Source: Eledone cirrhosa (taxonomy: Eukaryota). From it: 64,000 nucleotides of DNA. The stretch's first letter is position 1; the number at the start of each line of letters is the position of its first letter. The stretch is from assembly GCA_964016885.1 (NCBI GenBank), contig OZ024742.1:153202001-153266000 (forward strand), in the 5' to 3' direction. Below, piece by piece: positions 2,044-51,671 of the stretch. A program made the position numbers and the translations under genes. Under the pieces are notes generated by a model that saw nothing but the letters and a program-made list of their open reading frames with translations, was not told the origin of the DNA and made no database searches.

Positions 2044-2249
2044 ATAAAGAATGAATAATAACAGGTAGACATCATAAAAATACTGCTCTGAGGAAACAGT
2101 GGTAACAGCATTTGATAATTGAGTTTTGCAAATAATTATAAATTTGCACATAGCATAACTAGGCTGTATAACAACCGTGGAAACATTTGTAAGCACACGG
2201 AATAAATTACCTTTTTTATGATGTCTACCTGTTATTATTCATTCTTTAT
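2044..2249 (+). mobile_element. ORF-less fold-back mini-element with internal hammerhead
   Basis: Perfect 37-bp inverted repeat 2044-2080/2213-2249 enclosing the HHR; follows a (TA)n tract. Confidence 0.75.
2084..2195 (+). ncRNA. Type I hammerhead ribozyme with long stem II
   Basis: TGCT-CTGAGGA-[stem II with ACAGC/GCTGT and TGCAAAT/ATTTGCA]-GAAA-CATTTG-TA-AGCA; GUA site at 2191. Confidence 0.7.
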
Positions 2250-2369
2250 CTGCACTCCGGAATACAGAAGGATCAGGAACTGAGTTTCTTCAACTATTTT
2301 TCCATAACTCGTTGAGTAACCCCTCACCGTACATCAACCCTATCCAGTGTAATAATTAACCATTATTGC

Positions 2370-3076
2370 ATTCAGGATAATCCTAAACATTTCTTGCATA
2401 ACATAATATATATTAACAACTCCCTGACAGCATCCAATAGTGTTGGCAACGGCATCCGCAGACGCAACCAGAATGACCGCGAAGTGACTGGGGAGCATGC
2501 AAAACATGGCGTGCGGAATAACAATCGCACCATCCCGCGTGCTGTGGGTTGTAATTGTGCTAACGACAGCTGCGGTAGCGCAGCTAACAACGTAGGCAGC
2601 AACAATGATAGCCTTATCGTGGGAAATAGACGGAACAGCGACAGAAATTGCAACTGCCGCGACAGAGGACGGTGCCCCTTAGAGGATACTGCTTGACCGA
2701 TAGGGTTATATATAGATGCACTATTACTAGCCACAATATCGTTAAACATTATATAGGGGCCACCTCCGGCCCGTTCAAAATTAGGTTTCGAACACATCTC
2801 CACTCTTTCACAAATAGAAAACTAAGGCACTCCACCTCGCTCGTGGACTACATCACATCACTAAAGGACTTAAACATTAGCTTCTCCACGCACTGGGAGA
2901 TTGTCGACAGGGCTGCACCGTACAACTTCAAGAGGAAATGCGATCTTTGCCTCATGGAGCTCTACCGCATCATAACTGCACCCCACGAGCTCATCAACAG
3001 CAGAGCTGAAACAGCGATAAGTTGTACACATCGCTTAAAAATATCCTTCTTTAGATGGGTTAAGAATGGAGAGTGA
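2370..3076 (+). pseudogene. 5'-truncated Naiad-type PLE: linker zinc motif plus GIY-YIG endonuclease, frameshifted
   Basis: CNCRDRGRCPL / GYCL across a frameshift near 2685; VIYRC...HYIGATSGPFKIRFRTH; C-terminal CDLC and CTH. Confidence 0.85.
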
Positions 3077-3324
3077 AATAACACACTGGATCTCCCTGCA
3101 ACAAGTCTTAACACCCCGGCGGGCAGGCGCAGCAAAACAACACCCAGAAAACGATCCCTGCATACCAAAAATTATCCGGGAAAGACTGCCCTAACACCGG
3201 CCAAAGTTACCTCCCTTGACCTGCTGCAAAATCAAAACAAGATATTTTTGCTAACAATGAATCTTGATGTCGATTTAACCCCCAAATCTCTTTCCAAACT
3301 ATATAAGGAACACTTGTGACTGTT

Positions 3325-3369
3325 TATGCCCTTGAGACGCCCAACTGGGCGAAACGTACGTAGGTGATA
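3325..3369 (+). ncRNA. Minimal hammerhead in PLE 3' end, variant core TTGAGAC
   Basis: TATGCCC-TTGAGAC-GCCC AACT GGGC-GAAA-CGTACG-TA-GGTGATA, followed by AATAAA at 3375; ~250 nt after the GIY-YIG stop. Confidence 0.65.
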
Positions 3370-3581
3370 TTTTCAATAAACATGTTTTAACGGTCTATTC
3401 TCCGATTTTTCACTTTCCCACGTGCTTACGCTCTGCTCACTCTCTAGCCCACTAAATATTAACACTTCGAATATTTAATACTGCCGGCACTAGTATCGAG
3501 CACCTTTGGCATACGCTACTTGGCAAATAACTATATGTATCACCTATCCCTCCTTTTGTTCTCTCTTTCTCAATACGTTAA

Positions 3582-3622
<41 letters not shown>

Positions 3623-3750
3623 AAGTTATATTTAAAATTGTTGGGTTACAACTAGTAAATATTTATAACTGATATAAAAGCACTCGACAAATACTTGGAG
3701 TATATTTACAATATTAAATAAATGGAAAACTATATTTATAAAACCATATT

Positions 3751-3816
3751 TATTTCATTATATATATTTCGGGGATATCATATTAACAATATGCTATGCC
3801 TTCATCAGACAAAATA
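3751..3816 (-). ncRNA. Type I hammerhead ribozyme, intact core
   Basis: Reverse complement of the 10075-10140 motif. Confidence 0.9.
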
Positions 3817-4187
3817 CAATATAAACAGTTTTATAGATAAATATATTCGACATACCGTAATAAACATCAACTTCATTTGAAGAGGTTCACTCTAGCAGTG
3901 AAAATACAGAGAGAAAGAAAGAGAGAGAGAAAAGAGGGAAATAGGAAAGAAAGAAAGACAAAACGAAGAAAAGGAAGAAAAAGAAGAAAAAGAAAAAGAA
4001 GAAATGCATGGGACAAAATAGAGAGATGGAAAAATAGATAAAGCGAAGAGCTTCATGTAAAGAGACAGAAAGAGATATATATATATATAGAGAGAGAGAG
4101 GAAGTAGAGATAGATACATATATAAATATAGATATAGAAAAATTAGGTAGTGGGAGGTCATTTTGAGTAAGTGTATCAATGATGCAT

Positions 4188-4222
<35 letters not shown>

Positions 4223-4879
4223 GCTCAAGTATTAATGTAAGGGAGATATATAGAGAGATATAGAGAGATATAGAGAGAGAAAAAAATTTAAAAATAGCCA
4301 GACATATTCGAGGCGTAGAGAACCCTATGTTTTAATGTATTAGTATTTATAAAACTTACACTATATTGTAAATATCAGTATTCCTGAATGAAACAAGTAT
4401 TCACAATGCGTGAAAATTCATTATCTTATGTTTAGTTGTTTAAAAAATTCATATGTCTATGTGAATCCAACTGATTCACTCCGCAAATTCAAAGTTACCG
4501 GAAAACATTCTCAATGTGGTATAAAAATTTGAGCGTATTATTATTCTTGCGATTACTCTACAAGATTATCTATCAAGCAGAAATAGAGAGCAGATTTCAA
4601 TATACTAATCGAAAATATATATTATATTATAAGCAGAGATAACAATAATAATGATAATAAGTAAAAATATATAAAAATATAAAAATATAGAATAGAAAAC
4701 TAAAAAAGAATATTACGAAAGAATATTACATAATAAAAATATTGCATATTAAAAATACTACGTATTAAAAATATTACGTATTAAAACTTTACATATAAAA
4801 ATATACATATAAAAATATTAAAAATAAAAATAAAATAAAATAAAAAATAAAAATATTATAGAATACTACAATACTAAAA

Positions 4880-5340
4880 GAATAAAAATAAAAATAAAAA
4901 TAAAAATAAAAATAAAAATAAAAAAAAAAATAAAAATAAAAATAAAAATAAAAATAAAAATAAAAATAAAAATAAAAATAAAAATAAAAATAAAAATAAA
5001 AATAAAAATGAAAATAAAAATAAACCACAAAGAACAACCCTTCAAAGTTAATTGACAATATATTGCCAAGTTCACTACAAGACAAAGCCAAAAATTATCT
5101 ATCAAATCACATCTAGCAAGGAATATCGCAAAAAAAGATTATGATGTCCAATAATGTCTACATATGTTCCTATATTTAATATATAAGTTTATCAAGTGTA
5201 AGGTTAATTCAAAAAATTTGGAGCATCGGCTTTTAGGGTAGCTTAATTTTTCATGAGGAATGTTTAGATAAAAATAAAAATAAAAATAAAAATAAAAATA
5301 AAAATAAAAATAAAAATAAAAACAAATAAAATAAAATAAA
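4880..5340 (-). repeat. (TTTTTA)n arrays in PLE 3' UTR, mirrored at ~8520-8592 and ~8840-9010
   Basis: Hexamer arrays; copy number differs between the two arms. Confidence 0.9.
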
Positions 5341-5432
5341 CAATAAAAAGAGTAAAAAGAGGGAATCAAAGATTTAGGAAACAAAAGATTTATCGGCTAG
5401 TTCTCATATAAATATAAATCAAACTAAATATA

Positions 5433-7490
5433 CTACATTTTAAATTTAAATTTATATTTAAACGTTGAGTTTAATCTATCTTTGCAACAACTGAATACAT
5501 TTGTCCGTAGGTTAAGGGAATTTTTAGATTTTAGTATAAAGAATATCTCCTCTGCGCAAAGGTCACATGTCTCAGAGGATTAATTAAAAGGAATCCCTCT
5601 TGAGACTATATTCCAAGCCGTCGAATATCTAACGTTATCTAGCTTAAGTTGCCAGAGTACACCTGATAGTGCCGTTAAAGATTTTTTATTTGGATCTGTG
5701 AAAGAATTCTTGTGGTTATTATAGCGAAGTTTAAATTCCGTCGATGTGGAACCGACGTAGTTAAAAGAATTAGAGTCAGTATTAACATTACAATTGTATA
5801 CTATATTTTTAACTAAGCAGTTGTTATTTAACGGACATTTAGATCTATCTCTACAGTTACATTTGTTAACTTGTATATTATTTATGCTATTATCAGTAGG
5901 TTTTAAGTTCCTATTATTTATTCTATTAATATTTTGTGCTAAATTTTTGGTGGATGAGTAGGTTAATTTAATTGTATGCCTATTGAAGATTGAGTGGTAC
6001 CTATGTGTTCTAGGGAAGCGATTATCAAGAGCTTTGAAAAATAATTTAGCGATGTGGGTTTTAATGTTTAGTGAGAAAGGGGGGGCAAACCAAATTATGT
6101 TCCTAGTTCTATTTCTTTTTTGTCCTTTGGAATTATTGTAATGCTTTCTATTATAGTTGTTAATGTTGTTGCCGCCATTAAAAAAGTTGTTACTTTGTTT
6201 AGTTTGTTTATCATTATCTATGTACACAATCTTATCAGCATACCCTGCCCTAGCTAGTGCATCATTATAGTATTGGGCCTTTTCGTCAAAAATCTTTCTA
6301 TTCGACGAGATCCTAGAGATACGTTTTTGGACTGAGTTTACTATAGTGTTTTTGACAGATCTGGGGTGGTTAGAGTTAAAGTTGACATAGTTTAAGTTTT
6401 CATTCAACTTGTGAAAAGGATAGTGGAGACATGTGTTGAGATTTAATGTTATATCTAGGAAATTGACTATTCTATGGTTGTTCTCAATTTCTATTTTAAG
6501 GTTAAAGTAATTAAAACATTTTGTAATTTGTTTACATTTTCTATTTAGTTCAGGGTTATTATTATTAATAAGTAAAAGCATGTCATCCCTATATAAACCT
6601 CCGGTAGTACCAGGTATTTTCCTATGTAGCGAATTGATTAAAAATAAGCCCACAAGGTCAGTTACCTGAGCTGAGTCGGAAGATCCCATAGTTATGTCAA
6701 AATTGCTATCTCTATCTGCTCTGGTCCATAATTTGTCATCAAATTCTATCAAAGTTTTCCTAGCCGATAATATAATATGCATTTCTTTGCTAGTTAGGTC
6801 CGTATGTTTGAATGCATAATTTAGTGCCTTATTTAGTAGACTAGGGGTAATAGAAGAATAATAGTTAGCTATATCAAGTTGAATAAACCTATTATTATTG
6901 TCATATTTAATTTGCCTAAACCACTCAACAACCTCTCCAGTTCCCTTCCACAAGCTCAGGTTAGATACATAATCCAAGTTCTTAATTTGCAGTATCACCC
7001 TGTCAAGAATGTTTTTGCTTAATTTGCCCAGGTCCGATTTTGAAGGTGCGATCAATCTAACTGGCAGGTCAATCTCAAAATTCCTCTTGTGGTCCTTCAT
7101 ATTGATCTTCGGTTTCCTGGGCACGAAAGGTTGTGTTCTGTTCTCAATTTCCAACTCATGCATTATACAAGATGCTTCAACATTCATTTTCACAAGTTCG
7201 GTCTTATCTGCTACCTTGTATTTTTTCCTCAACTCTTTCAGTATGAGGCCATTATACATGTCTTTCTGCACTCCATAGAGGTTGTTGGTCTTGTCAGATT
7301 TCACCAAGATCTTCTCAGTTTTCTCTAAGCTCTCAATGTTGTCCTTAATGCCTTTCAGATATTCCTGGCCTTTAAAGTTTCTCTTGAATTTGACCCCTTG
7401 TATGATAGAAATTATATCGTTTTCAAAGTCAGATAAAAGTTTGTTAGGGGGTGGATTTCTTTTAGATTTGAAAACTTTGTTTAAGTCCGT
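5433..7490 (-). pseudogene. PLE (Naiad) reverse transcriptase + GIY-YIG endonuclease, 5'-truncated, one premature TAA at 5580-5582
   Basis: Frame open from ~7490 (FKSKRNPPPNKLLSDFEND...KSDKTNNLY); QLDIANYYSSI, MGSSDSAQVTDLVG, GLYRDD, VNFLDITLNL; CNCRDRSKCPLNNNC; IVY...YVG; after the stop the frame continues SSETCDLCAEE to TAG at 5433. Confidence 0.93.
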
Positions 7491-7497
7491 TTAACTT

Positions 7498-8423
7498 TGT
7501 CAAAAACACTATAGTAAACTCAGTCCAAAAACGTATCTCTAGGATCTCGTCGAATAGAAAGATTTTTGACGAAAAGGCCCAATACTATAATGATGCACTA
7601 GCTAGGGCAGGGTATGCTGATAAGATTGTGTACATAGATAATGATAAACAAACTAAACAAAGTAACAACTTTTTTAATGGCGGCAACAAGATTAACAACT
7701 ATAATAGAAAGCATTACAATAATTCCAAAGGACAAAAAAGAAATAGAACTAGGAACATAATTTGGTTTGCCCCCCCTTTCTCACTAAACATTAAAACCCA
7801 CATCGCTAAATTATTTTTCAAAGCTCTTGATAATCGCTTCCCTAGAACACATAGGTACCACTCAATCTTCAATAGGCATACAATTAAATTAACCTACTCA
7901 TCCACCAAAAATTTAGCACAAAATATTAATAGAATAAATAATAGGACCCTTAAAACCTACTGATAATAGCATAAATAATATACAAGTTAACAAATGTAAC
8001 TGTAGAGATAGATCTAAATGTCCGTTAAATAACAACTGCTTAGTTAAAAATATAGTATACAATTGTAATGTTAATACTGACTCTAATTCTTTTAACTACG
8101 TCGGTTCCACATCGACGGAATTTAAACTTCGCTATAATAACCACAAGAATTCTTTCACAGATCCAAATAAAAAATCTTCAACGGCACTATCAGGTGTACT
8201 CTGGCAACTTAAGCTAGATAACGTTAGATATTCGACGGCTTGGAATATAGTCTCAAGAGGGATTCCTTTTAATTAATCCTCTGAGACATGTGACCTCTGC
8301 GCAGAGGAGATATTCTTTATACTAAAATCTAAAAATTCCCTTAACCTACGGACAAATTTATTCAGTTGTTGCAAAGATAGATTAAACTCAACGTTTAAAT
8401 ATAAATTTAAATTTAAAATGTAG
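7498..8423 (+). pseudogene. Inverted duplicate of the PLE ORF 3' part, with +1 frameshift near 7948
   Basis: ORF 7628-7963 matches the minus-strand protein; gaactt->gaccctt; same TAA at ~8274. Confidence 0.92.
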
Positions 8424-9670
8424 TATATTTAGTTTGATTTATATTTATATGAGAACTAGCCGATAAATCTTTTGTTTCCTAAATCTTTGATTCCCTCTTT
8501 TTACTCTTTTTATTGTTTATTTTATTTTATTTATTTTTATTTTTATTTTTATTTTTATTTTTATTTTTATTTTTATTTTTATTTTTATTTTTATCTAAAC
8601 ATTCCTCATGAAAAATTAAGCTACCCTAAAAGCCGATGCTCCAAATTTTTTGAATTAACCTTACACTTGATAAACTTATATATTAAATATAGGAACATAT
8701 GTAGACATTATTGGACATCATAATCTTTTTTTGCGATATTCCTTGCTAGATGTGATTTGATAGATAATTTTTGGCTTTGTCTTGTAGTGAACTTGGCAAT
8801 ATATTGTCAATTAACTTTGAAGGGTTGTTCTTTGTGGTTTATTTTTATTTTCATTTTTATTTTTATTTTTATTTTTATTTTTATTTTTATTTTTATTTTT
8901 ATTTTTATTTTTATTTTTATTTTTATTTTTATTTTTATTTTTATTTTTATTTTTATTTTTATTTTTATTTTTATTTTTATTTTTATTTTTATTTTTATTT
9001 TTATTTTTATTCTTTTAGTATTGTAGTATTCTATAATATTTTTATTTTTTATTTTATTTTATTTTTATTTTTAATATTTTTATATGTATATTTTTATATG
9101 TAAAGTTTTAATACGTAATATTTTTAATACGTAGTATTTTTAATATGCAATATTTTTATTATGTAATATTCTTTCGTAATATTCTTTTTTTAGTTTTCTA
9201 TTCTATATTTTTATATTTTTATATATTTTTACTTATTATCATTATTATTGTTATCTCTGCTTATAATATAATATATATTTTCGATTAGTATATTGAAATC
9301 TGCTCTCTATTTCTGCTTGATAGATAATCTTGTAGAGTAATCGCAAGAATAATAATACGCTCAAATTTTTATACCACATTGAGAATGTTTTCCTGTAACT
9401 TTGAATTTGCGGAGTGAATTAGTTGGATTCACATAGACATATGAATTTTTTTAAAAACTAAACATAAGATAATGAATTTTCACGCATTGTGAATACTTGT
9501 TTCATTCAGGAATACTGATATTTACAATATAGTGTAAGTTTTATAAATACTAATACATTAAAACATAGGGTTCTCTACGCCTCGAATATGTCTGGCTATT
9601 TCTTAAATTTTTTCTCTCTCTATATCTCTCTATATCTCTCTATATATCTCCCTTACATTAATACTTGAGC

Positions 9671-9701
<31 letters not shown>

Positions 9702-10074
9702 ATGCATCATTGATACACTTACTCAAAATGACCTCCCACTACCTAATTTTACTATATCTATATTTATATATGTATCTATCTCTACTTCCTCTCTCTCTCT
9801 ATATATATATATATATATCTTTCTGTCTCTTTACATGAAGCTCTTCGCTTTATCTATTTTTCCATCTCTCTATTTTGTCCCATGCATTTCTTCTTTTTCT
9901 TTTTCTTCTTTTTCTTCCTTTTCTTCGTTTTGTCTTTCTTTCTTTCCTATTTCCCTCTTTTCTCTCTCTCTTTCTTTCTCTCTGTATTTCTACTGCTAGA
10001 GTGAACCTCTTCAAATGAAGTTGATGTTTATTACGGTATGTCGAATATATTTATCTATAAAACTGTTTATATTG

Positions 10075-10140
10075 TATTTTGTCTGATGAAGGCATAGCAT
10101 ATTGTTAATATGATATCCCCGAAATATATATAATGAAATA
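10075..10140 (+). ncRNA. Type I hammerhead ribozyme, intact core, palindromic stem III
   Basis: TATTTTGT-CTGATGA-A-GGCATAGCATATT GTT AATATGATATCCCC-GAAA-TATATA-TA-ATGAAATA; 8-bp stem I; predicted cut after A10132. Confidence 0.9.
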
Positions 10141-10178
10141 AATATGGTTTTATAAATATAGTTTTCCATTTATTTAAT

Positions 10179-10314
<136 letters not shown>

Positions 10315-10324
10315 TATTGATACA

Positions 10325-10600
10325 AGGAATTCCAACTTTGTCCGATTTACTCGTTTTATTTACAATCCTTTAAAATTTATTCTAGGTGAGGTGAGAGTTA
10401 AGTTTTCAATTTTCAACCGTTGAAAATTGAAAACTTGACTGTTATCACACAATTTGAACCTGAAGATTGCGAAAGCATGAAAGTACTTGTTCAATTTTCA
10501 CTTAACATTTAATATTCTATCATACTATTTCATTCTAAACCATTATAAATTTTAAAGGATTGTAAATAAAACGATTAAATCAGACAAAGTTGGAATTCCT
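10325..10600 (+). mobile_element. ORF-less fold-back mini-element with internal hammerhead
   Basis: 56-bp inverted arms 10325-10380/10545-10600; internal palindrome ~10391-10448; HHR inside; TA-rich flanks. Confidence 0.8.
10454..10494 (+). ncRNA. Minimal type I hammerhead ribozyme
   Basis: TTGAAC-CTGAAGA-TTGC GAAA GCAT-GAAA-GTAC-TT-GTTCAA; 6-bp stem I, GNRA-capped stem II. Confidence 0.85.
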
Positions 10601-11374
10601 GTTATTAATATAATCTTCTAAACACAATCATACACTCTTGTGTATATTCATCTATATATATATATTTATATATTAGTTTTGCGAGGTTTTTGATTTGAAA
10701 TCGTGTGTCGAAACAAATATTGTTATACCTGGGGAGGGTCATATTTGTGTAATAATATTGCCAGAATTAATAATAGAACACATTCACTGAGTGTGTTCTG
10801 TAAAGAGGTATAAACGTTTGGAGCTAGAAGGCCAACAGACGCAGGTATGGATATAGAATATAAATACAAATGCAAAAGATATGGCTGACAAATAGTCTCT
10901 TACCTTAAATTTATTTGAATAACCGTAATTTTCGAGGTAATATCTCTTCTTCGGAGGGAAGTAAAGGGGTTAATCCAGTGTTCTAATTAGCTTGCCAATT
11001 TATGCTGACAGGAAATGGTATAGAAATTCCATTCTATTTCTAATGTCAAAGAGTGAAGGTTAGCTGGATAAAGAGTTGTTTCCTTTTAAAAAGGGGTTTG
11101 GACATCTATGTTTAAGTGTGTGTGGGAGAATGCGTGAAAGTGTAAGTATGCGTGTGTGTGTGCGTATGTGTGTGTGTGTGAGTTTGAGAGGATATGTTTA
11201 TATGTAAATGTGGGGGCGAGATGCTCTATCATGTGTGTGTATGTGTGAGAGAGAATATGTGGAGGTGTAAGCGTGTGTATGTGTGTGCGTGTGAAAGAGT
11301 GTGTGACTGAGGGTACGTGGAGGTGTAAGTGTGGGGCTATGTGCTCTATCATGTTAAACATTGGGTGTTGAGTT

Positions 11375-12565
11375 CTAGTTTGTTATTGATTGGCGGTTGT
11401 GTTTTGTCTATAATCAGTGCTTCTTTAATTCTAAGATTGCCGAGGTTTCTCTCCTTAGCTTCTATCCTAACTATTATGTTTTTTCGGTGTTTTTGCATTT
11501 CACTAGGTGTTTCTTAAATGAGGAAGCGTTAGTATTGTGGTGTTCTTTTATTCTTATGTGAAGTGGTCTGGTGGTGCTACCTATGTAGAAATTGCTGCAT
11601 TTGTCGCACTCTAATCTGTATACGGCGTAAGCATGGTGGCCTAGGTCTGTGTCGTTGATGGGGCAGTTGGCTAGCCTGCAGCGGCTGTCATGTCTGGTGG
11701 ACTAGAGTTGTTAGGTTAGCTGCCCGCGTAGGGAAGGTCCTGAGTCGGGTAGTTGGATATCTAGTCCCTCTCGTCTGATAGCTCTGCGGATGGCTGTTGT
11801 TGTTTCGTCACTGAAGTGTGGGAGCTTCAAGAAGCAGGTGTTAGTGGCTCGGGTGTGGTTTCCTCTGTTGTTTGTGGCACGGTTCGCGGTGGACGTCGGG
11901 TATCCGTTCAGTTTAAGTACTTCCAGGAAATCTGTGGGGTGTGTGTCTCGGTTTCTTGCGTTGGTGAATTTGTTCCAGATACGTGTAGTTCGTTCCTTAT
12001 GTAACCGAACTTAGCGCTGGCTGGGAGGGCCGATCTGAAATGTACGAACAGGTCCCCGCTGGGGCTTGTTTATAGAAGCAGATGTGTATGTCGCCTTCCT
12101 CTGTTTCCCTGAGTTGGAAGTCAAATAGGGTAGGAATCCGCGGTCATCGGGGTGTTCCATGCTGAACTTTATACTGGCGTCCATGCTGGAGAATGTCGTG
12201 TATAATTTATTCGCTTCTTCACGGGATGATGTAAGGATGAGTATGTCATCTACATATCGTGTGAAGAAAGCATAGGAATGGCAGGTGTTGAGAGCTCGGC
12301 ATTCTAGCTGGTTCATCTAAGCGAAGGCCAGCAGGCCCGATAGGCTGAATCCCACTGTTAATCCTGTTCCCATTAAGTATGTGTGGTGGTGGAAAGTGAA
12401 GTACGTGTTTTCGACTGGCAAGGCCAAAAGCTGGTGTATGTCCGTCGGATGGAGGCCGTAACAGTGGACGTCCTCTGCGACCACGCATTCCGTCAATAAA
12501 TCGACAGCTGGATGAGCGGGGACTGTAGTGTAGAGGGAGAAAACGTCGAGGCTAAAGGCGTATCT
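11375..12565 (-). pseudogene. Degenerate non-Naiad PLE (Penelope/Poseidon-like) RT + GIY-YIG
   Basis: FSLDVFSLYTTVP; FFTRYVDDILIL; IKFSMEHP; AVYRLECDKCSNFYIGSTTRPLHIRIKEH; stops and frameshifts. Confidence 0.85.
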
Positions 12566-12996
12566 ATTTTATTTAGAAAGTGAGAGAGAGAGAGAAAGAG
12601 AAAGAGGGGAGATATAGAAAGAGAGTGAGGAAGAGACATAGATTAATATATAGGGAGAGAGTCAGAGAGATAACGTAGGGTGAGAGCATGAAAGACAGAT
12701 TTCCATGTGTGCTTTTGTGTGAATGCATGTGTCTTCATATGTTTGGCACGCGACATTCAGTGATATAACCTCAATCAAACAAACAAACACACGTTTTTAA
12801 TACAAGTTTCATGTTTTTCAATAATGTTTAATTAGTGTAATTTGTTTGAAATCAAATCAAATTGAAATTTCATTTAGAAAATATTAATAATATTTACAAC
12901 CCGAATGAATAAAACAGAAAATAATTAAACTTATATATGCTAGGTAAGTTCTGATTTCTCTCCACTTCACTCTTTCTCCGTGTATATATATATATG

Positions 12997-13104
<108 letters not shown>

Positions 13105-13384
13105 CCATGCGTGTAAGTGTGTGTGTTTGCTATTTATATAGATTAAAAATTGATGAAACTTTAAAATGTTGCATCTGTTATGCACCAATGTCTTAGTAGT
13201 CGTTTCTCGTAAATGACCTGTTTTAAAAAGCTTTTCAGTCAATAGGTAGATGCATAACGACTTGCATTTATAGAATCGTGGATTTATGGATTTAAATATA
13301 ATTACATGTCACATGTATAGCATACTACTCTATATATATATAAATATAAATGTATATATATATATATATAAATATATGTATATA

Positions 13385-13505
<121 letters not shown>

Positions 13506-13541
13506 GAATATTAACAAAATAGATATTCTTGTGATCAAGTA

Positions 13542-13600
13542 TATTTTATTATACATATTTCAGAGTTGACTTCAACACTACGTCTTCATCAGATAACATA
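13542..13600 (-). ncRNA. Hammerhead, same family as 14851, shortened stem II
   Basis: Revcomp TATGTTAT-CTGATGA-AGACGTAGTGTTGAAGTCAACTCT-GAAA-TATGTA-TA-ATAAAATA. Confidence 0.75.
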
Positions 13601-14850
13601 AGATGATGCATGACTACCCTCACAGAGTAGATGGTTAAGATTCAGACATGGTAGTGAGTAATATATGACAAAATTCAATGTTTATATACCTTAATATTGA
13701 GAACATGAGAAAAACATATAATACACACAGTAGAGAGGGTGCGCGTGAGACAGCTTAAAAAATACTTGATATCAATATAACTGTTAAATAATTTAAATTA
13801 CTGAAGAAAGAGGAAAGAAAAGAAAAAGTATAGAGGAAGACACAGTGAGTAGTTAGTAGGGGCCTAGAAAAACAAAGGAGAGTTGATTACAGAGAGAGAG
13901 AGAGATAAAGAGGAATAACTTATGTTCAAGTCTTTAGACAATTATCCATATATACAATATATATCTAAACATATCGGGTTGACCGTTAATATTCAAAATA
14001 TTTAATTTAAGTTCGTTCAGAGTAATGAATAATATTTTAGGTTTTAAAAGTTAATAAATATCTGTGTTAATATTAATGTATACTATCAAATTTAATTTCT
14101 AAAATAAAATTTTATGAAATCAAATTTAAAGGATTTACAAACACGAGAAAGAAAACATAATGTTTTACAACCTCACGAAGGTAAACTTTACCAGATTTAT
14201 TATATAATATTGACAATAGTTTATATAATATAATTTAGAAAATAATTACAGTTATAATTTTTAAGAATTTATGATTAAACATTTGAGGCGTTATAATTAA
14301 ACTTAAAATGGTCTGAATTTTAAATTACATATGAGTTTATAAAAGAAAATGCATAAAGATTATATTGTCTAAAAACTTAAGATGATACCTTTCACATATA
14401 CATAACATAATACAATATAGTAAATAAGTTACTGAAAATATTGTTAAAAATTTATGTTTTAGATCAATTATTGTAATAGGATCATTTAATATATATATAC
14501 TATAAATATATAAGTCAACACTTCATTAGTCCTAAGTATAAGGACTATATACAAAATAAAAAGTGAAAAAATAATGAATTGTTTGCGAAACATAAAAATG
14601 ACCAATATTAAAAAAATACAGTTTAAAATGCAAGAATGTTTTAATGAATTAATTTCAACTGTACGTCCTCATCAGATAAAATAAGATGATGCATGATATG
14701 CCCTGACATAGTAGATGGTTAAGATTCAGTTATGGTAGTGAGTATGACAAAACTATTAAGGTATATCAATATTGAGTTTTCTCATATACTACTCACTACC
14801 ATGACGGAATGTTAACCATCTACTATGTCAGGGTATGTCATGCATCATCT

Positions 14851-14917
14851 TATTTCATCTGATGAGGACGTACTGTTGAAGTTAACTCAGTACCTCTGAA
14901 ATATGTATAATAAAATA
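14851..14917 (+). ncRNA. Type I hammerhead in 5' pLTR, ~200 nt upstream of the PLE ATG
   Basis: TATTTCAT-CTGATGA-GGACGTACTG..CAGTACCTCT-GAAA-TATGTA-TA-ATAAAATA. Confidence 0.85.
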
Positions 14918-15119
14918 TACTTGATCACAAGAACATCTATTTTGTTAATATTTTGAATTAATATTAATAACTCCGGAAAACCAAACGGTTGAGTGCTTCC
15001 AATCTATTGTAACACTCATTCTTTGATTTATTCATTGAACTTTGTTTAACTTTTAAATATGTCTAGCTCCAAGCAGGTTGCGCGCTTTTCTCTACAATAG
15101 ATTGCATATTTAATAAATA

Positions 15120-17500
15120 ATGGAATTCTTCACCTTCCCGACATCTCTCAAGTATATACCTATACCATCTAATGAAGAATACATGGGGAAACTTATAGAA
15201 CAAACAAACTCTTTTATAAGAAGAGTGAGATGGCGCGCATTTCATTTCGATAATAAAGAAGCTAAAAGAAAAACCAACAACAATTATTTCGAAACTATCT
15301 TTAAATCTAGAAAGAATACACCTTACAACAAACTCCTGGAGGATTTTGAAACTGAAATGCTCAATATACTTAAGAAAAGTAAATTCAGGAAAAAACCCAT
15401 ATATAGGTCACCAATACCTTAGAACTTTAAAAGAAAAAATCTCGGATATAAAAAAAGTTAATAATTTATATGGGATAAATAAAGAAGAATATAATGATTT
15501 GATTTTAAAAGAACTAAGGAAGAATTATAAAAAAGCCCCTGCCGAAGATCTTTCAGACATGAATAATGATGCATATAAATTAATTGCAAAATTAGGAATT
15601 GAAGGAAGAACCGAGCCTCTTATTCCTAGACAGCCGAGGATTAATTTTAAAGATTACAAAAGAAACTTTGAGGAAGACCTGCCAGTTAGACTGATCGCTC
15701 CATCTAAATCGGATATTGGAGTAATCAGTAAGAATATTATTGATAGAATTCTACCAATTTTGAAATTGAAGTCTAAATTGAGCTTATGGAAGGACACCAA
15801 TGAAGTGATTGATTGGTATAAAATATAGATGATAAGAAAAACCATAAATTCATCCAAATGGACATAACAAGCTATTACTCTTCCATTACGCCTAACCTAC
15901 TAAACAAGGCTTTATCCTACGCTTACAAACATACATATCTAACTATGGATGAAATCGATATCATTATTAACTGCTAGAAGAACTCTAATTAATTTCAACA
16001 ATGAGTATTGGACCTGCTCAGACAGAAATAAATACTTTGTCATTACCATGGGATCATCGATCTCAGCTCAAGTCACGGATCTTCTGGGATTTTCAACTTA
16101 AATATGGTAAATAGAAAACTGCCGGAGATTACCGTTGGTTTATATAGGGACGATATTTTATTTACGGTTTTCAAACACAGCAATACAGAACTAAATAGGG
16201 TTAAGAAAAATAAAATTGAATTCTTTAAAAATTACGACTTTAAATTAGTGGTTGAAAGAAGTACCAAAGTAGTTAATTTCCTTGATGTTACCCTTAACTT
16301 AAACTCTAGTTTTTATTACCCTTTCCATAAGCCCAATGAAAACTTAAATTACGTTAGTTATTACTCTAATCACACTAAATCTGTAAAAAAATGCAATGGT
16401 CAATAGTGTACAGAAACGCATAACTGGAATATCTTCTAATAAATCAATATTTGATGAAAAAGCAGGATATTACAATGATGCGCTAAGAAAGGCAGGTTAT
16501 AAAAATAATATAGAATATATAGACAATAATAATTCGAATTTTAATCCTGATAAAAATAATAATAATTGTTTCTACTTTAGGCACAAGGCCAGCAATTATC
16601 CAGTACATTACTGGTACTTTATTTTATCGACCCCGTAAGGATGAAAGGCAAAGTCAACCTCGGCGGGATTTGAACTCAGATCGTAAAGGGACGTAACTAT
16701 ACTGGAAAGCATGGCGTCCGACCCTCTACCGATACTTGGCATGTATAAACGAAATTCTAAAAATTATAATTCAAACACCTGTACTGTGAATAAATCGGGG
16801 AAAAAAAACAAACTAAATCAGTTATATGGTTTGACCGCCCCTGCTTCTGTAGCAGTAAACACACCACTAGCTAATCTATTCTTTAAATCTTTAGATAATT
16901 CCTTCCCTATTCAACATAAAAACCGTTCCATATTTAATAGACACACAATTAAGGTTTCTTATTCTACAACTATGAATATGGCCCAAAACATCGCTAAACT
17001 AAATAGTAGAATTCTAAACCAAAATCAGCATAATAGTGTTAATAATAGTGTTAATATAAATAATAATAAATGGAAATGTAATTGTAGAAATAAACCAGAT
17101 TGCCCTCTGCAAAATAATTGTCTGGATAGAAATTTGGTGTATAAATGCACCGTAAAAGCTAATAACATACAACTACATAGGGGCAATTTCTTCGACATTT
17201 AAATAGAGATTTGCGAATCACAAATACTCGTTTTAGAATCCTAATAGGAAGTCTTCGACTTCTTTATCACAACTTATATGGTCATTAAAAGACAAAAATT
17301 TAAAATACTAATATTTTTGGACGAAGCTTTGTAATAGTAGAATCATATATCAGCTATATCAACTAACTGCAACCTCTGTACTAAAGAAACCCTATTAATA
17401 ATTACTAATTATGAAAACTTAATTAACAAAAAAGTGAATTATTCTCAGACTGCCTTCATAAAGCTTTGTCTACATTCCAAGCCTCGCCAAAAGTCAGGTA
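15120..17500 (+). pseudogene. Naiad PLE ORF (N-terminus, RT, linker, GIY-YIG), multiply frameshifted
   Basis: SLKYIPIPS...FIRRVRWRAFHF; LPVRLIAPSKSDIG; GLYRDD; VNFLDVTLNL; CNCRNKPDCPLQNNC; CNLC. Confidence 0.92.
16565..16740 (-). mobile_element. MetaSINE-type SINE inserted in the PLE ORF
   Basis: Reverse-complement homologue of 1343-1520 (CTGGTACTTTATTTTATCGACCCCGTAAGGATGAAAGGCAAAG...GATTTGAACTCAG). Confidence 0.88.
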
Positions 17501-19286
17501 GAAACACTAAACAAACAGGTTTAAATTTTTGACATCTCTTATTAACTGTTGTACCTAAAACGTTATGACAGTTTATACAACTTTAATAATACTTTATTTT
17601 CTAATCATTTATGATAGAATTAATGTTAGAATGAAGGGTCCTGTTTAGGTATATAAACATATTATTTGTTAACTTGTTCTCTTGATGAATATGCACACCT
17701 TTGGATTATTTTAGATATTTATAATTTAGATTCGGATCCTTATATATATTTGTCTTTGTTTTAAATATATAATTTAGATATATAACTTGTAAGATTACCG
17801 GTTATAATTGAACCGTAAATCATTCATGCATTTATATATTTTACTCATTTTGGGTAAGTTTTGGGACTCAGAAAGGTAGGTTTGCACATATATATTTTTT
17901 ATATATATTTTATACATATTTTAACCATACTAGTCGACAAATATTGGTCTCTCTTTCCACTGAACTGGAAGTAAAACTACAATTATAATATTTCTAATAA
18001 TGATTGTAACTATTTATTTATTATATGTATATCGTTTCACTAATACCTATAATACTCTCTATATATATTTGAAAAAATTTGTTTATCTAGTATAACATGC
18101 ACGTAGTTACATTTATAAGTAATTTAGATACTCAAATGACTCTCTATTGTTATAAGTGTTAGACATTTCCTTAATGTTCGAAATTATATAATGATTATTA
18201 CTTAATTTAATTTAATTTATTTTATTTTAATTAAATTTAGATTACCTTCGGGTCATTCAAATCCTTATCTCTTCTTTCGTGGGCATTTTAGAAGTATCTG
18301 TGGTCTACTCTATAATAAAACTCTCTTGCATTTTAAACTATACTTTTTTAATATTGTGCATTTTTATGTTTCGCAAACAATTCATTATTTTTTCACTTTT
18401 TATTTTGTATCTAGTTCTTATCCTTAGGACTCATGAAGTTTTGACTTATATATTTATAGTATATATCTATTAAATGATCGTATTACAATAATTGATCTAA
18501 AACATTAATTTTTTACAATATTTTCAGTAACTTATTTACTATATTGTATTATGTTATGTATATGTGAAAGGTATCATCTTAAGTTTTTAGACAATATAAT
18601 CTTTATGTATTTTCTTTTATAAACTCATATATGTAATTTAAAATTCAGACCATTTTAAGTTTAATTATAACGCCTCAAATGTTTAATCATAAATTCTTAA
18701 AAATTATAACTGTAATTATTTTCTAAATTATATTATATAAACTGTTGTCAATATTATATAATAAATTTGGTAAAGTTTACCTTCGTGAGGTTGTAAAAAC
18801 ATTATGTTTTCTTTCTCGTGTTTGTAAATCCTTTAAATTTGATTTCATAAAATTTTATTTTAGGAATTAAATTTGATAGTATACTTTAATATTAATACAG
18901 ATACTTATTAACTTTTAAAACCTAAAATATTATTCATTACTCTGAACGAAATTAAATAAAATATTTTGAATATTAACGGTCAACCCGATATGTTTAGATA
19001 TATATTGTATATATGGATAATTGACTAAAGACTTGAACATAAATTATTCCTCTTTATCTCTCTCTCTCTGTAATCAACTCTCCTTTGTTTTTCTAGGCCC
19101 CTATGCTTTTCTTTTCTTTCCTCTTTCTTCAGTAATTTAAATTATTTAACAGTTATTTCGATGCCAAGTATTTTTTAAGCTGTCTCTTTGAAATTAGAAA
19201 TTATAAGCTTTCACCGTATTTTAGACTAAATACATTTCTAGCCTGATAGTGGGGTTTATAACCCTCGGAGAAATATATATATATAG

Positions 19287-19655
19287 AGAGAAAATTGAGT
19301 TTGGTAATGGCACATGGAATATATAAGAGACAGAATACTTTTTTGTGAAAAAACATATAATTTTATAAGATAAGGAAATAATTTAGCAGTCAACGAGCTG
19401 CTAAACGAGCTGCTACCAAGATGAAAAATACTGTGAAATCCCACAATGAATTTTATACTTGAATTTTCAAATCTCAAATGATAACTTTTCTTATTATAAA
19501 TTTTTCTTAATATTAATTAACATTTGAAAATATGGCTTTTGCAGACCCATCGAAACCGGTCATTTTATATACCCTTTATTATTTCCTTACCTTATAAAAT
19601 TATATGTTTTTTCACTTATATATTCCATGTGCCATTACCAACCTCAATTTTCTCT
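19287..19655 (+). mobile_element. ORF-less fold-back mini-element with internal hammerhead
   Basis: Inverted arms 19287-19384/19577-19655 (short indel); HHR just before the right arm. Confidence 0.75.
19518..19567 (+). ncRNA. Minimal hammerhead with U3:A8 core
   Basis: TAACAT-TTGAAAA-TATGGCTTT TGC AGACCCATC-GAAA-CCGG-TC-ATTTTA; GUC site at 19561. Confidence 0.7.
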
Positions 19656-19686
19656 ATAACCTTCGTTTTGTGTAGTAAATTACACT

Positions 19687-19734
<48 letters not shown>

Positions 19735-19828
19735 TGAAGAATGTGTGGTTTAGAAACCATGTGGACCATAACGCACCAGAGTACTCGATAACTTGGGTAA
19801 TAGAATGGGTAATCGGAAAATATTCAGG

Positions 19829-19923
19829 ACCCCGACGGCAGAGCTCAAGCCATTTCGACGACTATTTCTGGACTAAATTAAAATTTTCGCGTGGTAATGA
19901 AATAGCCGATCTTTACAAGGGGT
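19829..19923 (-). ncRNA. Hammerhead with full stem III, U3:A8-type core (TTGTAAA)
   Basis: Revcomp ACCCC-TTGTAAA-GATCGGCTATTTC..GAAATAGTCGTC-GAAA-TGGC..GCCG-TC-GGGGT. Confidence 0.65.
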
Positions 19924-21068
19924 AATTCCATATATGGGCATGCGATAATTAGGTATTTCACAATGATTGGTCGAACTTTCTTATAAACATAGTTAAGTCC
20001 TTCATGTGGAACTTGCATGTAGAACAATAAGGGAGTGGGTGAAGCCGGCCAGGCGTTAAAAGTAAAATCTATACACAAAATTCTAAGGAGTGTGGGTGAA
20101 ATAGGCTACCTAGAAAGCAAGCGAAAATAGAATTATACAGGAATCTGAAAATTATAAAATTAAAAAACGAAAGCCTATATAGGATTAACCGTCTGTGACT
20201 TTAAGACCCGGCTCTACCAACACCGACATACGTTCTGAAACCCGGCCCGGCAACGTGCCATTACACTTTCGGCCACATCTGGCACCTCCAAGATAATAAC
20301 ATCACACACCATCTTACTTGGAGCTTACTTTCCAGGGCTAACTCCTACTCGGGAGGACGCCGTCCGTGTAACTTATGCTCGGAGGAAACAATACAAATGT
20401 TGTTTACGAAGGAACAACTCCTAAACAAAAAAGATGAATTTGTAAACCCATGTAAACACCGATTGCGTAGGACTTACCTTGACTTCAAACCCCCTCATGA
20501 CCCGGGGGTGGTAGTGACAGTGGCTGTAATATCCTTCATTTCCCCACATGCCGAACAAGATATGGGAAACCAAAACATACATAGGTAGATGCAATTATTT
20601 TCTTTTTTCCCTTTATCCCTTCCTCTCACTTGCCTCACTACCTCTCCTCTTCCTTTTCCTTTTTCCTCTTTCCCTTACCCCGAAGCAGTCCATCGGGCTT
20701 TTGTAGCCTCAGTACCCCCATCCCCGCGAATTCTATATAACATTGGCTGAAAACGCAACACCAGCTACAAATATAACAGTTGTTTTAGACTCTAGTTTTT
20801 TAAATTTTATAATTTTCAGATTCCTGTAGAATTCTTTTTTCGCGTGCTTTCTAGCTAGCCTATTTTATTCACATTCCTTATAATTTCGTGTATAGATTTT
20901 TCTTTTAACGATTGACCGGCTTCACCCAAACTTGGACTACAGGTAAGTTCACCCCCAAAAAACCAACCCCACCCCTAACGACCGCCATGTAAGACTTAAC
21001 TGTGTTTACAAGAAAGTTCGATCACTACTTTTCAAATACCTGATTATCACATGCCCATATATGAAATT

Positions 21069-21163
21069 ACCCCTCGAAAAGCTCGGTTATGTCATCCCCA
21101 CAGTAAAATTTGAATTTAGTCCAGAAATCACCGTCGAAACGGCTTGAACTCTGCCGTCGGGAT
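21069..21163 (+). ncRNA. Hammerhead, partner of 19829 (core TCGAAAA)
   Basis: ACCCC-TCGAAAA-G..CGTC-GAAA-CGGC TTGAACTCT GCCG-TC-GGGAT. Confidence 0.65.
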
Positions 21164-21175
21164 CCTGAATGTTTT

Positions 21176-21215
<40 letters not shown>

Positions 21216-21231
21216 AGAGCCCCGGGTTCAG

Positions 21232-21314
<83 letters not shown>

Positions 21315-21376
21315 AATATGTTGATTTAAAACTGCACTATCCACAAGTGTTTTTTAGCCTTCATATCATGTTCTCC

Positions 21377-21447
21377 TGTTTTATCTGATGAAAACACAAA
21401 TATTATTGCATGATGATGTTTGTTTTTGAAATGCGCATAATAAAATA
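21377..21447 (+). ncRNA. Type I hammerhead in a solo ~175-bp unit between two (TA)n tracts
   Basis: TGTTTTAT-CTGATGA-AAACACAAATATTATT GCAT GATGATGTTTGTTTTT-GAAA-TGCGCA-TA-ATAAAATA. Confidence 0.88.
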
Positions 21448-35069: not shown

Positions 35070-36690
35070 CAGAGACCTTTCAAGGAGAGTTTGCACTCAG
35101 CCCACTTCTGGGTGAGTGCAAACACCTTCACCGTGACCTCGTTCCAGTTCTTGTCCACCTGGAGGTCTGGACCGAATCAGACCCGGAGCAAAACTGTCGG
35201 AAGGCATGGGTTTGGCTCTCCATGTGCCGAGTTTCAAACCGACAGACTTGTTTGGGTTTAGTCTTGCTTCTGTCAACGTTTCGTATTCATGTAATAGGTT
35301 TCCGATTACCCTGATTTCCGAGGGTTTCGACACCATTAGGGTTATTTCGTCGACATAGGCCGACGCTGCTTTCCGCAGTCCTGGTTCGATCAGGATGCCC
35401 TGCAACAGCTCCAACTTCCGTAGTAACAGTTCGAGAGTCAGTACATACATAATGGAGGAGAGAGGGCATCCATGACGGATGGAACGCATGATTTTGAATG
35501 GCTCTGATAGGTAGCCATTCACCTTGATTGCCGAGCAAATGCTGGTGTACATGGCAGTGATCCAGCCGCTGAAGACGGGATCGAAGCCGGCAGCCTTGAG
35601 AACTGCTTCCAGGTATTGATGGTCGACCCTCTCAAATACCTTAGACTGATCTAAATTGATCAGAACCCCACCGAAGCCAGGGTTACACCCAACCCTCTCT
35701 ATGATGTATCGCATGAGGTGGAGGTTGTAGTGTTTGGAGCTGGTCGGGATTGCACACCTTTGGACTTCCCCTACCAGGTTCTAGACGACAAGCACCAGCC
35801 TTCCGGCTAACACCTGTGCCAAAATCTTTAACTCTATGTTGAGCAGAGTTATGGGCCTGCAATTGCGTATCTCATCCCCTTTGTTCTCATGTTTCCTGAT
35901 CAGCGTTACTACCTCTCTGCCTACAGAACTGAGAATCCTCCAGTTCTGCTGCCAGTTGCAGTAACCGCTTCGAGGACGCCAGAGAACAAGTCTGGCATAC
36001 CTATGTAAAACTCATAGGGTAGACCATCTGAACCGGGTCATTTGCGTTTCCCGCAGCGGCCTAGGGCATCTTCTATTTCGCCCGCTGTGATCGGCCTTTC
36101 GCAGCTCTCCGCATCCGTACTCGAGAGTCGCGGTAAGCCGTCGATGTAAGAGCTGAAGTCCATCACCTCGCTCGATGTACCGCTTTGCCCGAACAGTTGT
36201 GCAAAATGCTGCTGGAATGCCTTGCACATCTTGGATTCAATTATAATGCGTCCATCTTTGTCTTGCAAGGACGGAATTGGGGATTTGTTGCCATTTTCGC
36301 CTCTGCCAATCGGGCCCAGCTAACAGCTTTAGCTCCCTCATTTCTTAGAGCACGTGTTCTACTTCTGACAATAAAACCTCCGTGTTTCACGTTGAAGGAC
36401 TGGTCTATTGCCGTTCTCGCCGCTAGCACATCAGCTGTATTGCCATTCCTAAGTGCCTCTTCTATTTTAGCTACCAGTTCCTTTTCAGTTTTTTTTTCTA
36501 GAGCTACTTCCTTGCTAAATGCTATCGATTCTTTTCTAATTGCTCTCTTGAGAGAGCTCCAACACATGTTGTTGGCGATCACCCCCGTCAACTGGCACTT
36601 AACTAAGGTGCTAATCCTTTTACTGTAGGCCCTACTCGCCGGGAGCGACATGTTTAGCTTCCAGTATCCGGGTCCCTGTCTATGTGTTCT
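35070..36690 (-). pseudogene. L1/Tx1-like LINE ORF2 relic (end of APE domain and RT)
   Basis: GPGYWKLN; RPITLLNIxLKILA; LINLDQSKVFERVDHQYL; SIRHGCPLS; SAYVDE; NPNKSVGL. Confidence 0.85.
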
Positions 36691-49812: not shown

Positions 49813-50829
49813 AACCCATGGCTGAGCAGACACCATGATGGCCTTGAGATTGATTCTGACACAACCTTTATAATTTGGCCAACATCTTTCTAACACACAC
49901 ACATTTTAATTTACCTGATTTTTGATTTTTCAATTTTGATTTCTCATTATTCATTTGTTATATTTTTTCTGTTTTCTTCACTTTATCACCTTATATTTAT
50001 ATTTAAGTTGAGATTGGTTATAACACACACACATTTTATTTGCTTATCCTATTTTGTTTTATTCTTTTATCATCTTGTTCCTCCAACCAATCTATGCAAC
50101 ATATTTCTGACCTTGAGATTGGTTATAGCACACACACATTTTATCTTATTTTATTCGAATCTTATTTTACTTTTCACTTTTCATTTTCATTTTTCATTTT
50201 CCATATTCACTTTTCATTACTTTTTCATTACCTTTTCATTAATTTTTCATTTATTCTCTATCTATTATTTATTTTCTGTTTATTTCATTTTATTGCCTTC
50301 TATTTCTACATATACATGGCAGACCCCCCCTCCCCCCACACCACCACCACCCACAACCACCAATACGGGAGATAGTGTAGAAACACACACACAGATACTT
50401 CGAAATTGTCAGCAGCAGCAAGACATAAGCTGACCACAACACCAACAACACTACCAAGCTAAGGGTAGAGGTCTGATGAACTTAACAATAGCAAATACAA
50501 ACACTACAGGGAGCCTCACCCCAGAAAGAATTTCTATAGACTTTGGACTGAGGAATGCTCTCAAACCTGAACAATGGGAAGTTTGACCTTACAAATCTTT
50601 AAAACATTGAGATGGGTATAACACTCACATTTTATTCGATTATTTTATTTTGTTCCTTTACCATTTTATTCCTTCTACCACTTTATCACATTTTTTTGAG
50701 CTGACTCCAACAATAACACCACTCCCAACACAAGAATAGAGGTCAGATGTACCTAACAATAACACCGAAATATATATAGCAGTAATACACGAAGCCAAAT
50801 TTTAAAAATTTGACTTATTTATTTTATTT

Positions 50830-50881
<52 letters not shown>

Positions 50882-50954
50882 GTGTATAAGATGGCTGTCA
50901 CCGAAACATATATAGCAGTAATAAACGAATATATATATATATATATTCGTTTAT

Positions 50955-51136: not shown

Positions 51137-51229
<93 letters not shown>

Positions 51230-51636: not shown

Positions 51637-51671
<35 letters not shown>

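What the first reader, a model, noticed from the sequence alone, without database searches (positions are those of the whole stretch)
2044..19655. ORF-less MITE-mimicking fold-back mini-elements, each carrying a hammerhead
Seen: three sequence-unrelated 200-370 bp units (2044-2249, 10325-10600, 19287-19655) share one layout: inverted copy of the post-ribozyme tail, then an HHR, then the tail, beside TA-rich tracts. They look like TIR-bearing MITEs, but the TIR is the sequence 3' of the cleavage site. Inference: either extreme 5'-truncated PLE insertions or a non-autonomous ribozyme retroelement class mobilised by PLE RT (retrozyme-like); as RNA each folds into a panhandle with the HHR in the loop.
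Basis: partly seen in the sequence, partly recalled or inferred. Interest (0 to 1): 0.8.

Follow-up and report, generated by a model that had tools for sequence, protein, structure and literature searches.

The report
Head-to-head truncated Penelope retroelement insertions
The three hairpin-shaped pieces are short, head-to-head leftovers of three ordinary Penelope-like jumping genes, not a new class of element; the one fresh detail is that in one family about half of the sampled copies stop at one spot, which is likely where the element's RNA begins.

Summary
The layout is real, but the boundaries were misread and the new-class reading fails. Each unit is the 3' end of a different Penelope-like element (PLE) family with about 900 to over 5,000 motif copies, and longer copies run into reverse-transcriptase ORFs. 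Each unit continues 35-155 nt past its 'TIR'. Of 74 head-to-head pairs, 65 have one long and one short end and only 1 has two long ends, so these are polar retro-insertions, not MITEs. Junctions differ between loci, and short and long copies interleave on a tree. This inverted-copy-plus-tail pattern is published (PMC8557442, PMC3846280, PMC4209133), and this scan met it in other genomes. Unit 2's hammerhead motif is clear, unit 1's has a long stem II, and unit 3's is a damaged U3-A8 variant; cleavage is untested. New detail, family 2 only: 51 of 94 arms start within 12 nt of one base, 31 nt below a TATA box kept in two subfamilies. These arms are likely run-off cDNAs of sense RNA ending at the transcription start.

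The parts
2044..2080 (-). Unit 1: inverted short-end arm (copy of 2213-2249)
   Evidence: short end at the same base in 40 of 75 family arms
2083..2405 (+). Unit 1: direct arm, 3' end of PLE family 1, including about 155 nt beyond the inverted repeat
   Evidence: 91% identical over 317 nt to ORF-bearing copy L324
2084..2195 (+). Unit 1: type I hammerhead-like motif, long stem II, core 2088-2094, GAAA 2180-2183, predicted cut after 2191
   Evidence: sequence; core variation; not matched by Rfam
10313..10417 (-). Unit 2: inverted short-end arm, internally deleted (tail copy, filler, then the copy of the 5' segment at 10396-10417)
10416..10660 (+). Unit 2: direct arm of Neptune-type PLE family 2, from the inferred transcription start (10416) to the long end
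   Evidence: 88.5% identical to full-length copy L144
10454..10494 (+). Unit 2: minimal type I hammerhead motif, predicted cut after 10488
   Evidence: 5,173 exact 37-mer matches in the genome; not matched by Rfam
19284..19382 (-). Unit 3: inverted short-end arm
19385..19692 (+). Unit 3: direct arm of Neptune-type PLE family 3, including about 36 nt beyond the inverted repeat
   Evidence: 89% identical to full-length copy L258
19524..19565 (+). Unit 3: degenerate U3-A8 hammerhead-like motif (core 19524-19530, GAAA 19552-19555; G10.1 changed in this copy)

Best explanation
The three units are ORF-less 3' ends of three different Penelope-like retrotransposon families, each lying head to head with a shorter inverted copy beside (TA)n, and each was likely built anew at insertion by the parent's reverse transcriptase and endonuclease. 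Shown here: the parents, two preferred 3' ends per family, one long plus one short end per pair, and variable junctions. Inferred from the Anolis PLE in vitro work (PMC11167929): the endonuclease cuts AT-rich DNA, and reverse transcription starts inside the RNA at two sites downstream of the hammerhead, which gives the long and short ends. The RNA is mostly uncleaved, so the hammerhead is copied along. The two cDNA ends are then joined by microhomology or filler. In family 2, cDNA most often stops at one base 31 nt below a TATA box; I infer this is the RNA's 5' end, so these arms would be complete run-off copies of the first 170-230 nt of a sense transcript. The products lack the ORF and usually the promoter, and are probably dead ends. 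Whether the second arm comes from a second priming event or from fold-back on the first cDNA is not resolved.
For: Parents. Family 2: direct hammerheads 4,202 and 4,208 nt apart around 476-aa and 775-aa ORFs, with RVT_1 at E 3e-6 (just under the curated cut-off) and GIY-YIG above cut-off. Family 3: a 4,871-nt unit with a 777-aa ORF, RVT_1 above cut-off. Both carry the Cx4CxxC linker. Family 1: 7 of 30 loci have PLE-like ORF matches upstream on the same strand, and L324 holds a 627-aa ORF with YRDD. Two 3' ends. Family 3: +110 to +114 in 35 and +150 to +152 in 35 of 78 arms. Family 2: +131 in 35 of 117, with the long end in most of the rest. Family 1: +50 in 40 of 75. Polarity: long+short in 65 of 74 pairs, long+long in 1 (p = 1.5e-8 against 25%). 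Junctions: spacers of 50-96 nt with varied filler in 25 position-ordered short pairs, 6 of them at 75 nt. The two arms of a locus agree at 91% of polymorphic sites against 73% between loci, and share 26 rare alleles in 52 pairs. Tree of 116 arms: long and short labels need 23 changes (shuffled mean 26.6), and 2 identical sets span both labels. 5' pile-up: 17 of 94 arms at +1, 51 at +1 to +12, none at -2 to 0, 3 at -7 to -3, 21 further upstream. Twelve of the 51 are joined to (TA)n or unrelated DNA (read by eye), so self-complementarity is not the cause. TATAAAA or TATATAA sits at -31 in both subfamilies. Genome-wide, 3,850 copies carry the +1 20-mer and 1,503 also carry the 4 bases upstream.
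Against: No transcript evidence for the start site was obtained. The pile-up is absent in family 3 (3 of 88 arms at its TATA/Inr candidate) and in family 1 (no TATA found, ends spread), so it does not explain units 1 and 3. The 1,503 count misses a subfamily with TATT upstream (L154, L155), so the genome-wide ratio overstates the effect. The family 1 ORF has no Pfam match, and no full-length family 1 copy with two direct pLTRs was found. The exact centre CAAC[A/T]GTTG recurs at many loci. One haplotype is enriched among short arms, 33 of 107 against 1 of 37 long (p = 2e-4). A short arm is strictly closest to its own partner in only 5 of 20 pairs. Samples come from the first 66-254 Mb of one contig and are anchored on exact motifs, so they favour young copies.
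Confidence: 0.85

Rival explanations
1. Non-autonomous ribozyme retroelement class (retrozyme- or SINE-like): the mini-elements themselves are transcribed and re-copied in trans by PLE reverse transcriptase as their own lineages.
For: Recurrent 75-nt centre in 6 of 25 unbiased pairs and 14 of 22 top BLAST pairs. Haplotype ACACATTAT is enriched in short arms. Two family 3 loci with different flanks share one exact palindromic junction. About half of family 2 arms have nearly the same 5' end.
Against: The centre letter is A or T and occurs on several subfamily backgrounds; filler differs between loci. Arms pair within loci, and short and long copies interleave. The enriched haplotype also has upstream-extending copies: 8 of its first 34 matches are in the list (compared by eye). 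Arms that start at +1 have lost the TATA box. A palindrome gives no unit-length monomer by hammerhead cleavage, whereas animal retrozymes are defined as tandem units (10.64898/2026.07.22.740005, part 1). The shared family 3 junction sits on a self-complementary hexamer of the parent.
Confidence: 0.08
2. MITEs: DNA transposons with terminal inverted repeats that happen to carry a hammerhead motif.
For: Inverted repeats and TA flanks; a TA target duplication cannot be seen inside (TA)n.
Against: The element extends past the repeat on one side in 65 of 74 pairs, and the 8 short+short cases are disrupted or misread long ends on inspection. Sizes run from about 200 bp to 8.9 kb with the same termini. 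Parents encode reverse transcriptase. No transposase search was run.
Confidence: 0.02
3. Post-insertion collapse: long inverted PLE pairs lose their middle by hairpin-driven deletion, leaving mini-palindromes.
For: Some short copies, including window unit 2, show internal deletions of one arm with different end points (L001-L005). Long inverted pairs are common.
Against: It does not predict a sharp one-sided edge at +1, solo arms that start there beside (TA)n, or untemplated filler at centres. It probably acts as a secondary step only.
Confidence: 0.05

Closest known systems
Insertion units of endonuclease-positive Penelope-like elements (PMC8557442 passages and section 15; PMC3846280 passages)
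   Same: 5' truncation, adjacent inverted 5'-truncated copy, tail at one end only, hammerhead in the pLTR, (TA)n bias, palindromes at the inverted junction, TATA plus Inr in a pLTR.
   Different: The tail is about 155 nt in family 1 and 40-60 nt in family 2, against the 30-40 bp described. A sharp pile-up of 5' ends at a TATA-positioned base was not in the passages read. PMC3846280 proposes self-priming on an antisense template; the family 2 data fit a sense template better (inference).
Neptune clade PLEs
   Same: RT followed by a CX2-5CxxC linker and a GIY-YIG domain in families 2 and 3.
   Different: No phylogeny against reference Neptune proteins was run. Family 1 lacks this linker; its CNC..CPL linker looks Nematis-like, which is recalled and untested.
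PAc/Poseidon of Anolis carolinensis in vitro (PMC11167929, parts 1-2 of 4)
   Same: Two internal RT start sites that define the tail, both target strands cut and extended, uncleaved RNA as the main template.
   Different: There the two strands showed no difference in start site; here pairs are almost always long+short. It is a different clade.
Minimal hammerheads of metazoan PLEs (PMC4209133, parts 1-2 of 4)
   Same: Small or palindromic helix III, the U3-A8 variant, dual motifs 100-700 bp apart on opposite strands, mostly single motifs ascribed to truncated PLEs.
   Different: Unit 2 has U-U instead of G10.1-C11.1, and unit 1 has an 85-nt stem II.
Animal non-LTR retrozymes (10.64898/2026.07.22.740005, part 1 of 5)
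   Same: ORF-less, type I hammerhead, PLE-derived.
   Different: Retrozymes are head-to-tail tandem units; these are head-to-head or solo ends with ORF-bearing parents.

Membership tests
EN+ Penelope-like element | RT plus C-terminal GIY-YIG endonuclease in the parent | tested here: met
   Family 2: RVT_1 E 3e-6 (under cut-off) and GIY-YIG above cut-off. Family 3: RVT_1 above cut-off, YIGQT motif but no GIY-YIG Pfam hit.
EN+ Penelope-like element | RT plus endonuclease in the family 1 parent | tested here: inconclusive
   627-aa ORF with YRDD and YYIGS, tblastn matches to the window's PLE-like ORFs, weak blastp to family 3 (E 6e-4); no Pfam match.
EN+ Penelope-like element | pLTRs in direct or inverted arrangement with a tail at one end | tested here: met
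   Direct repeats 4.2 and 4.9 kb apart for families 2 and 3; 65 of 74 pairs long+short.
EN+ Penelope-like element | Hammerhead motif in the pLTR | tested here: met
   Core and stems by pattern; no Rfam match.
Hammerhead ribozyme | Self-cleavage activity | not testable with these tools
   Indirect test on insertion ends was inconclusive.
Neptune clade | CX2-5CxxC linker between RT and EN | tested here: met
   CNDNRCGTC and CGRTNCGTC in families 2 and 3; absent in family 1.
Neptune clade | Phylogenetic placement of the RT | not tested
   No reference set was aligned.
MITE | Element bounded by symmetric terminal inverted repeats | tested here: not met
   One end extends past the repeat.
MITE | Fixed-length target site duplication | tested here: inconclusive
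   Flanks are microsatellites.
MITE | Matching transposase-coding partner | not tested
   The longer relatives found encode RT instead.
Non-LTR retrozyme | Tandem units, each with a hammerhead | tested here: not met
   The first 100 matches of each family show solos, inverted pairs, kb-scale direct pairs and one short direct set in family 1; no monomer arrays. Later matches were not listed.
Non-LTR retrozyme | Circular RNA intermediates | not testable with these tools
Independently amplifying non-autonomous family | Shared inherited junction and own clade | tested here: not met
   one haplotype enrichment remains unexplained.

The most novel reading that the evidence does not exclude
Family 2 has a SINE-like side cycle. 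Any copy that keeps the pLTR TATA box, with or without an ORF, makes a sense RNA from a fixed start; the PLE reverse transcriptase starts inside it and runs off its 5' end, and two such cDNAs, sometimes from different source copies, are joined head to head. Thousands of about 380-430 bp palindromes would then be a genome-wide map of a PLE's transcription start and of its two RT start sites. That would argue for sense-template double priming over antisense self-priming, with a minority of templates cut at the hammerhead.
Probability: 0.3. Interest if true: 0.6.

Novelty: new member of a known kind. Interest (0 to 1): 0.36.

Why it matters
As elements these are ordinary PLE debris, worth knowing because repeat pipelines could file them as MITEs. 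The part of value is mechanistic. How PLEs make inverted repeats, which strand is the template and what the hammerhead does are stated as open (PMC8557442 section 15, PMC3846280). Family 2 offers thousands of young insertions with a sharp 5' edge at a TATA-positioned base and strict long+short pairing. These give exact coordinates for 5'-end mapping and for in vitro tests like those done on the Anolis element.

Tried and rejected
Rfam: no hammerhead family matched in the window or in three short stretches. Pfam on seven window ORF fragments: nothing. RNA: no RNA holder listed for the family 2 3' end; no reads were laid. Reference artefacts: the peaks at 147 (family 1), 265 (family 3) and 283-290 (family 1) are where the reference copy diverges, not truncation points. 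L292, taken as a full-length family 1 tandem, is a 5.5-kb duplication with unrelated ORFs. Start-site pile-up as a general rule: rejected for families 1 and 3. In vivo hammerhead cleavage read from arm starts: 7 of 94 arms start at +69 to +78 around the predicted cut (+74), and one full-length arm begins there (L144). (TA)-joined starts number 8 at +43 to +55, 25 at +66 to +78 (23 of them at +72 or later) and at least 27 at +79 to +91, counted as distinct loci by eye. That is a step, not a peak, and AT microhomology could cause it: inconclusive. Extra G opposite a cap: not seen (c 8, a 5, g 4 among 17 arms). Fold-back rule that the long-ended arm always reaches further 5': exceptions in families 2 and 3. 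Pure fold-back also fits poorly with the 23 of 52 pairs that differ at two or more polymorphic sites, some with no private change (L352, L011), though hypermutable sites confound this. A splice-acceptor reading of TTACAG was rejected because arms include those bases. Literature searches for the start-site pile-up and for PLE ends misfiled as MITEs returned no listing that describes it; the library lacks most subscription papers and no supplements were read. PMC13282606 (passages) added nothing. The host was not identified.
Full report
Observation. The window is G000:C3:153202001-153266000 of a 3.0-Gb genome. The three inverted repeats are there, fold into panhandles far better than shuffles, and are unrelated to each other. 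Unit 2 has a minimal type I hammerhead motif. Unit 1 has the core words with an 85-nt stem II and a variable N7 across the family. Unit 3's family has the U3-A8 core, and this copy has also lost G10.1. Rfam recognises none of them and activity is untested.

Parents. Exact motif counts are 874 (family 1), 5,173 (family 2) and 1,883 (family 3). Family 2 copies with direct hammerheads about 4.2 kb apart hold a 476-aa ORF overlapping a 775-aa ORF with RT and GIY-YIG matches. Family 3 has a 4.9-kb unit with a 777-aa RT ORF, 48% identical to that of family 2; both have the Cx4CxxC linker described for Neptune (PMC8557442 passages). For family 1, 7 of 30 loci run upstream into PLE-like ORF matches on the same strand and one more has them in the inverted arm. 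L324 has a 627-aa ORF with RT-type motifs but no Pfam match, so this parent is less firmly classified. The window units match L324, L144 and L258 at 91%, 88.5% and 89%.

Ends and junctions. To avoid BLAST ranking bias I used position-ordered matches from contig C1: the first 100 for family 2, about 80 for family 3 and about 80 for family 1. Each family has two preferred 3' ends. In head-to-head pairs one arm has the long end and the other the short end in 35 of 41, 9 of 9 and 21 of 24 cases. One pair is long+long, and the 8 short+short cases are disrupted or misread on inspection. A cut-and-paste element defined by its inverted repeats would not carry the extension. Spacers between the two hammerheads run from under 40 nt to 8 kb. 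Among 25 short family 2 pairs, spacers are 50-96 nt with deletions, duplications and filler; 6 are 75 nt, with either A or T at the centre. Arms of one locus agree at 91% of polymorphic sites against 73% between loci and share 26 rare alleles in 52 pairs, of which 20 come from the BLAST-ranked set. On a tree of 116 arms, short and long copies interleave and some are identical (support is low on 172 columns). The minis are therefore made repeatedly from ORF-bearing lineages. Against this, one haplotype is enriched in short arms (33 of 107 against 1 of 37), although it also has upstream-extending copies.

The family 2 edge. Anchored on the tail, 51 of 94 arms start at +1 to +12 of one position, 17 exactly at +1 and none at -2 to 0; 21 extend well upstream. 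The hammerhead-anchored set agrees (28 of 117 at the same base). Twelve of the 51 are joined to (TA)n or unrelated DNA, so the edge does not depend on a partner arm. Two subfamilies that differ just upstream both keep a TATA word at -31; that spacing is typical of polymerase II promoters (own knowledge). Genome-wide counts point the same way, 3,850 against 1,503, with a known undercount. I infer a transcription start, but have no transcript evidence. Families 3 and 1 show no such edge (3 of 88; spread).

Mechanism. The Anolis PLE protein cuts and extends both target strands, starts reverse transcription at two sites inside the RNA that bound the tail, and mainly uses uncleaved RNA (PMC11167929, parts 1-2). 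That accounts for two 3' ends and for the hammerhead being copied. Internal starts near the 5' end of a pLTR-initiated RNA would give short run-off cDNAs, which is what family 2 looks like (inference). Centres where both arms reach +1 with one base between them (L178), and young pairs with two different haplotypes (L352), favour joining of two cDNAs. Rare alleles shared by both arms favour one template or later conversion. I leave this open. Evidence for cleaved templates is inconclusive.

Known or new. The inverted truncated copy, the tail at one end and the (TA)n bias are in PMC8557442 (passages, section 15). Palindromic inverted junctions, TATA/Inr in a pLTR and solo pLTRs are in PMC3846280 (passages). 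Opposite-strand hammerhead pairs 100-700 bp apart and the U3-A8 variant are in PMC4209133 (parts 1-2). A TATA-less internal promoter is reported for Drosophila Penelope (PMC2377424, passages). Earlier notes of this scan reached the same verdict in other genomes (unchecked), and none held the start-site words. I found no description of a start-site pile-up; coverage is limited and supplements were not read.

Verdict. These are new members of a known kind, and the proposed new class is not supported. Interest 0.36, mostly for the family 2 edge and the strict long+short pairing, which give testable coordinates for an unresolved transposition cycle.

Noticed in passing
L141, L142, L144 (family 2); L121, L122, L128, L258 (family 3): The upstream ORF overlaps the RT ORF, with a T TTT TTA heptamer at the overlap in all 8 arms listed, which suggests a programmed -1 frameshift (slippery-site reading recalled). 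The Fig. 1 legend of PMC8557442 says ORF1 can be separated by a frameshift in some PLE types.
   Followed up: partly
window 3587-10190: Large head-to-head PLE-like insertion with arms of about 2.7 kb at 99% identity, a 636-aa ORF at 5580-7490 (-) and hammerhead motifs at 3808 (-) and 10083 (+); unit 2 lies in its flanking (TA)n run.
   Followed up: partly
window 13501-19270 and 19739-21430: Further inverted PLE-like insertions with ORF fragments and hammerhead motifs at 13592 (-) and 21385 (+); unit 3 lies between them.
   Followed up: no
window 50763-52405: Cluster of small palindromes with hammerhead motifs at 51005 (-) and 51941 (+); the latter shares sequence with the 3587-10190 element.
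   Followed up: no
window 2410-3560: Another PLE-like fragment (148-aa endonuclease-like ORF at 2630-3076, hammerhead-like words near 3333-3370) directly after unit 1's long end.
   Followed up: partly
G000:C21:2464936-2470010 and beyond: Tandem array of about 54-bp units that contain words of the family 2 tail: a satellite possibly born from a PLE end.
   Followed up: no
L268 and L282: Two family 3 loci with different flanks are perfect palindromes joined at the same self-complementary hexamer of the parent.
   Followed up: partly
L144 (G000:C1:21871700-21881100): An 8.9-kb palindrome of two near full-length family 2 copies; one arm begins at the predicted hammerhead cut site.
   Followed up: partly
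window 35097-36765 (-) and 38367-39428 (+): Fragments of a LINE-like RT (reading by eye) and of another PLE-like ORF of 353 aa.
   Followed up: no
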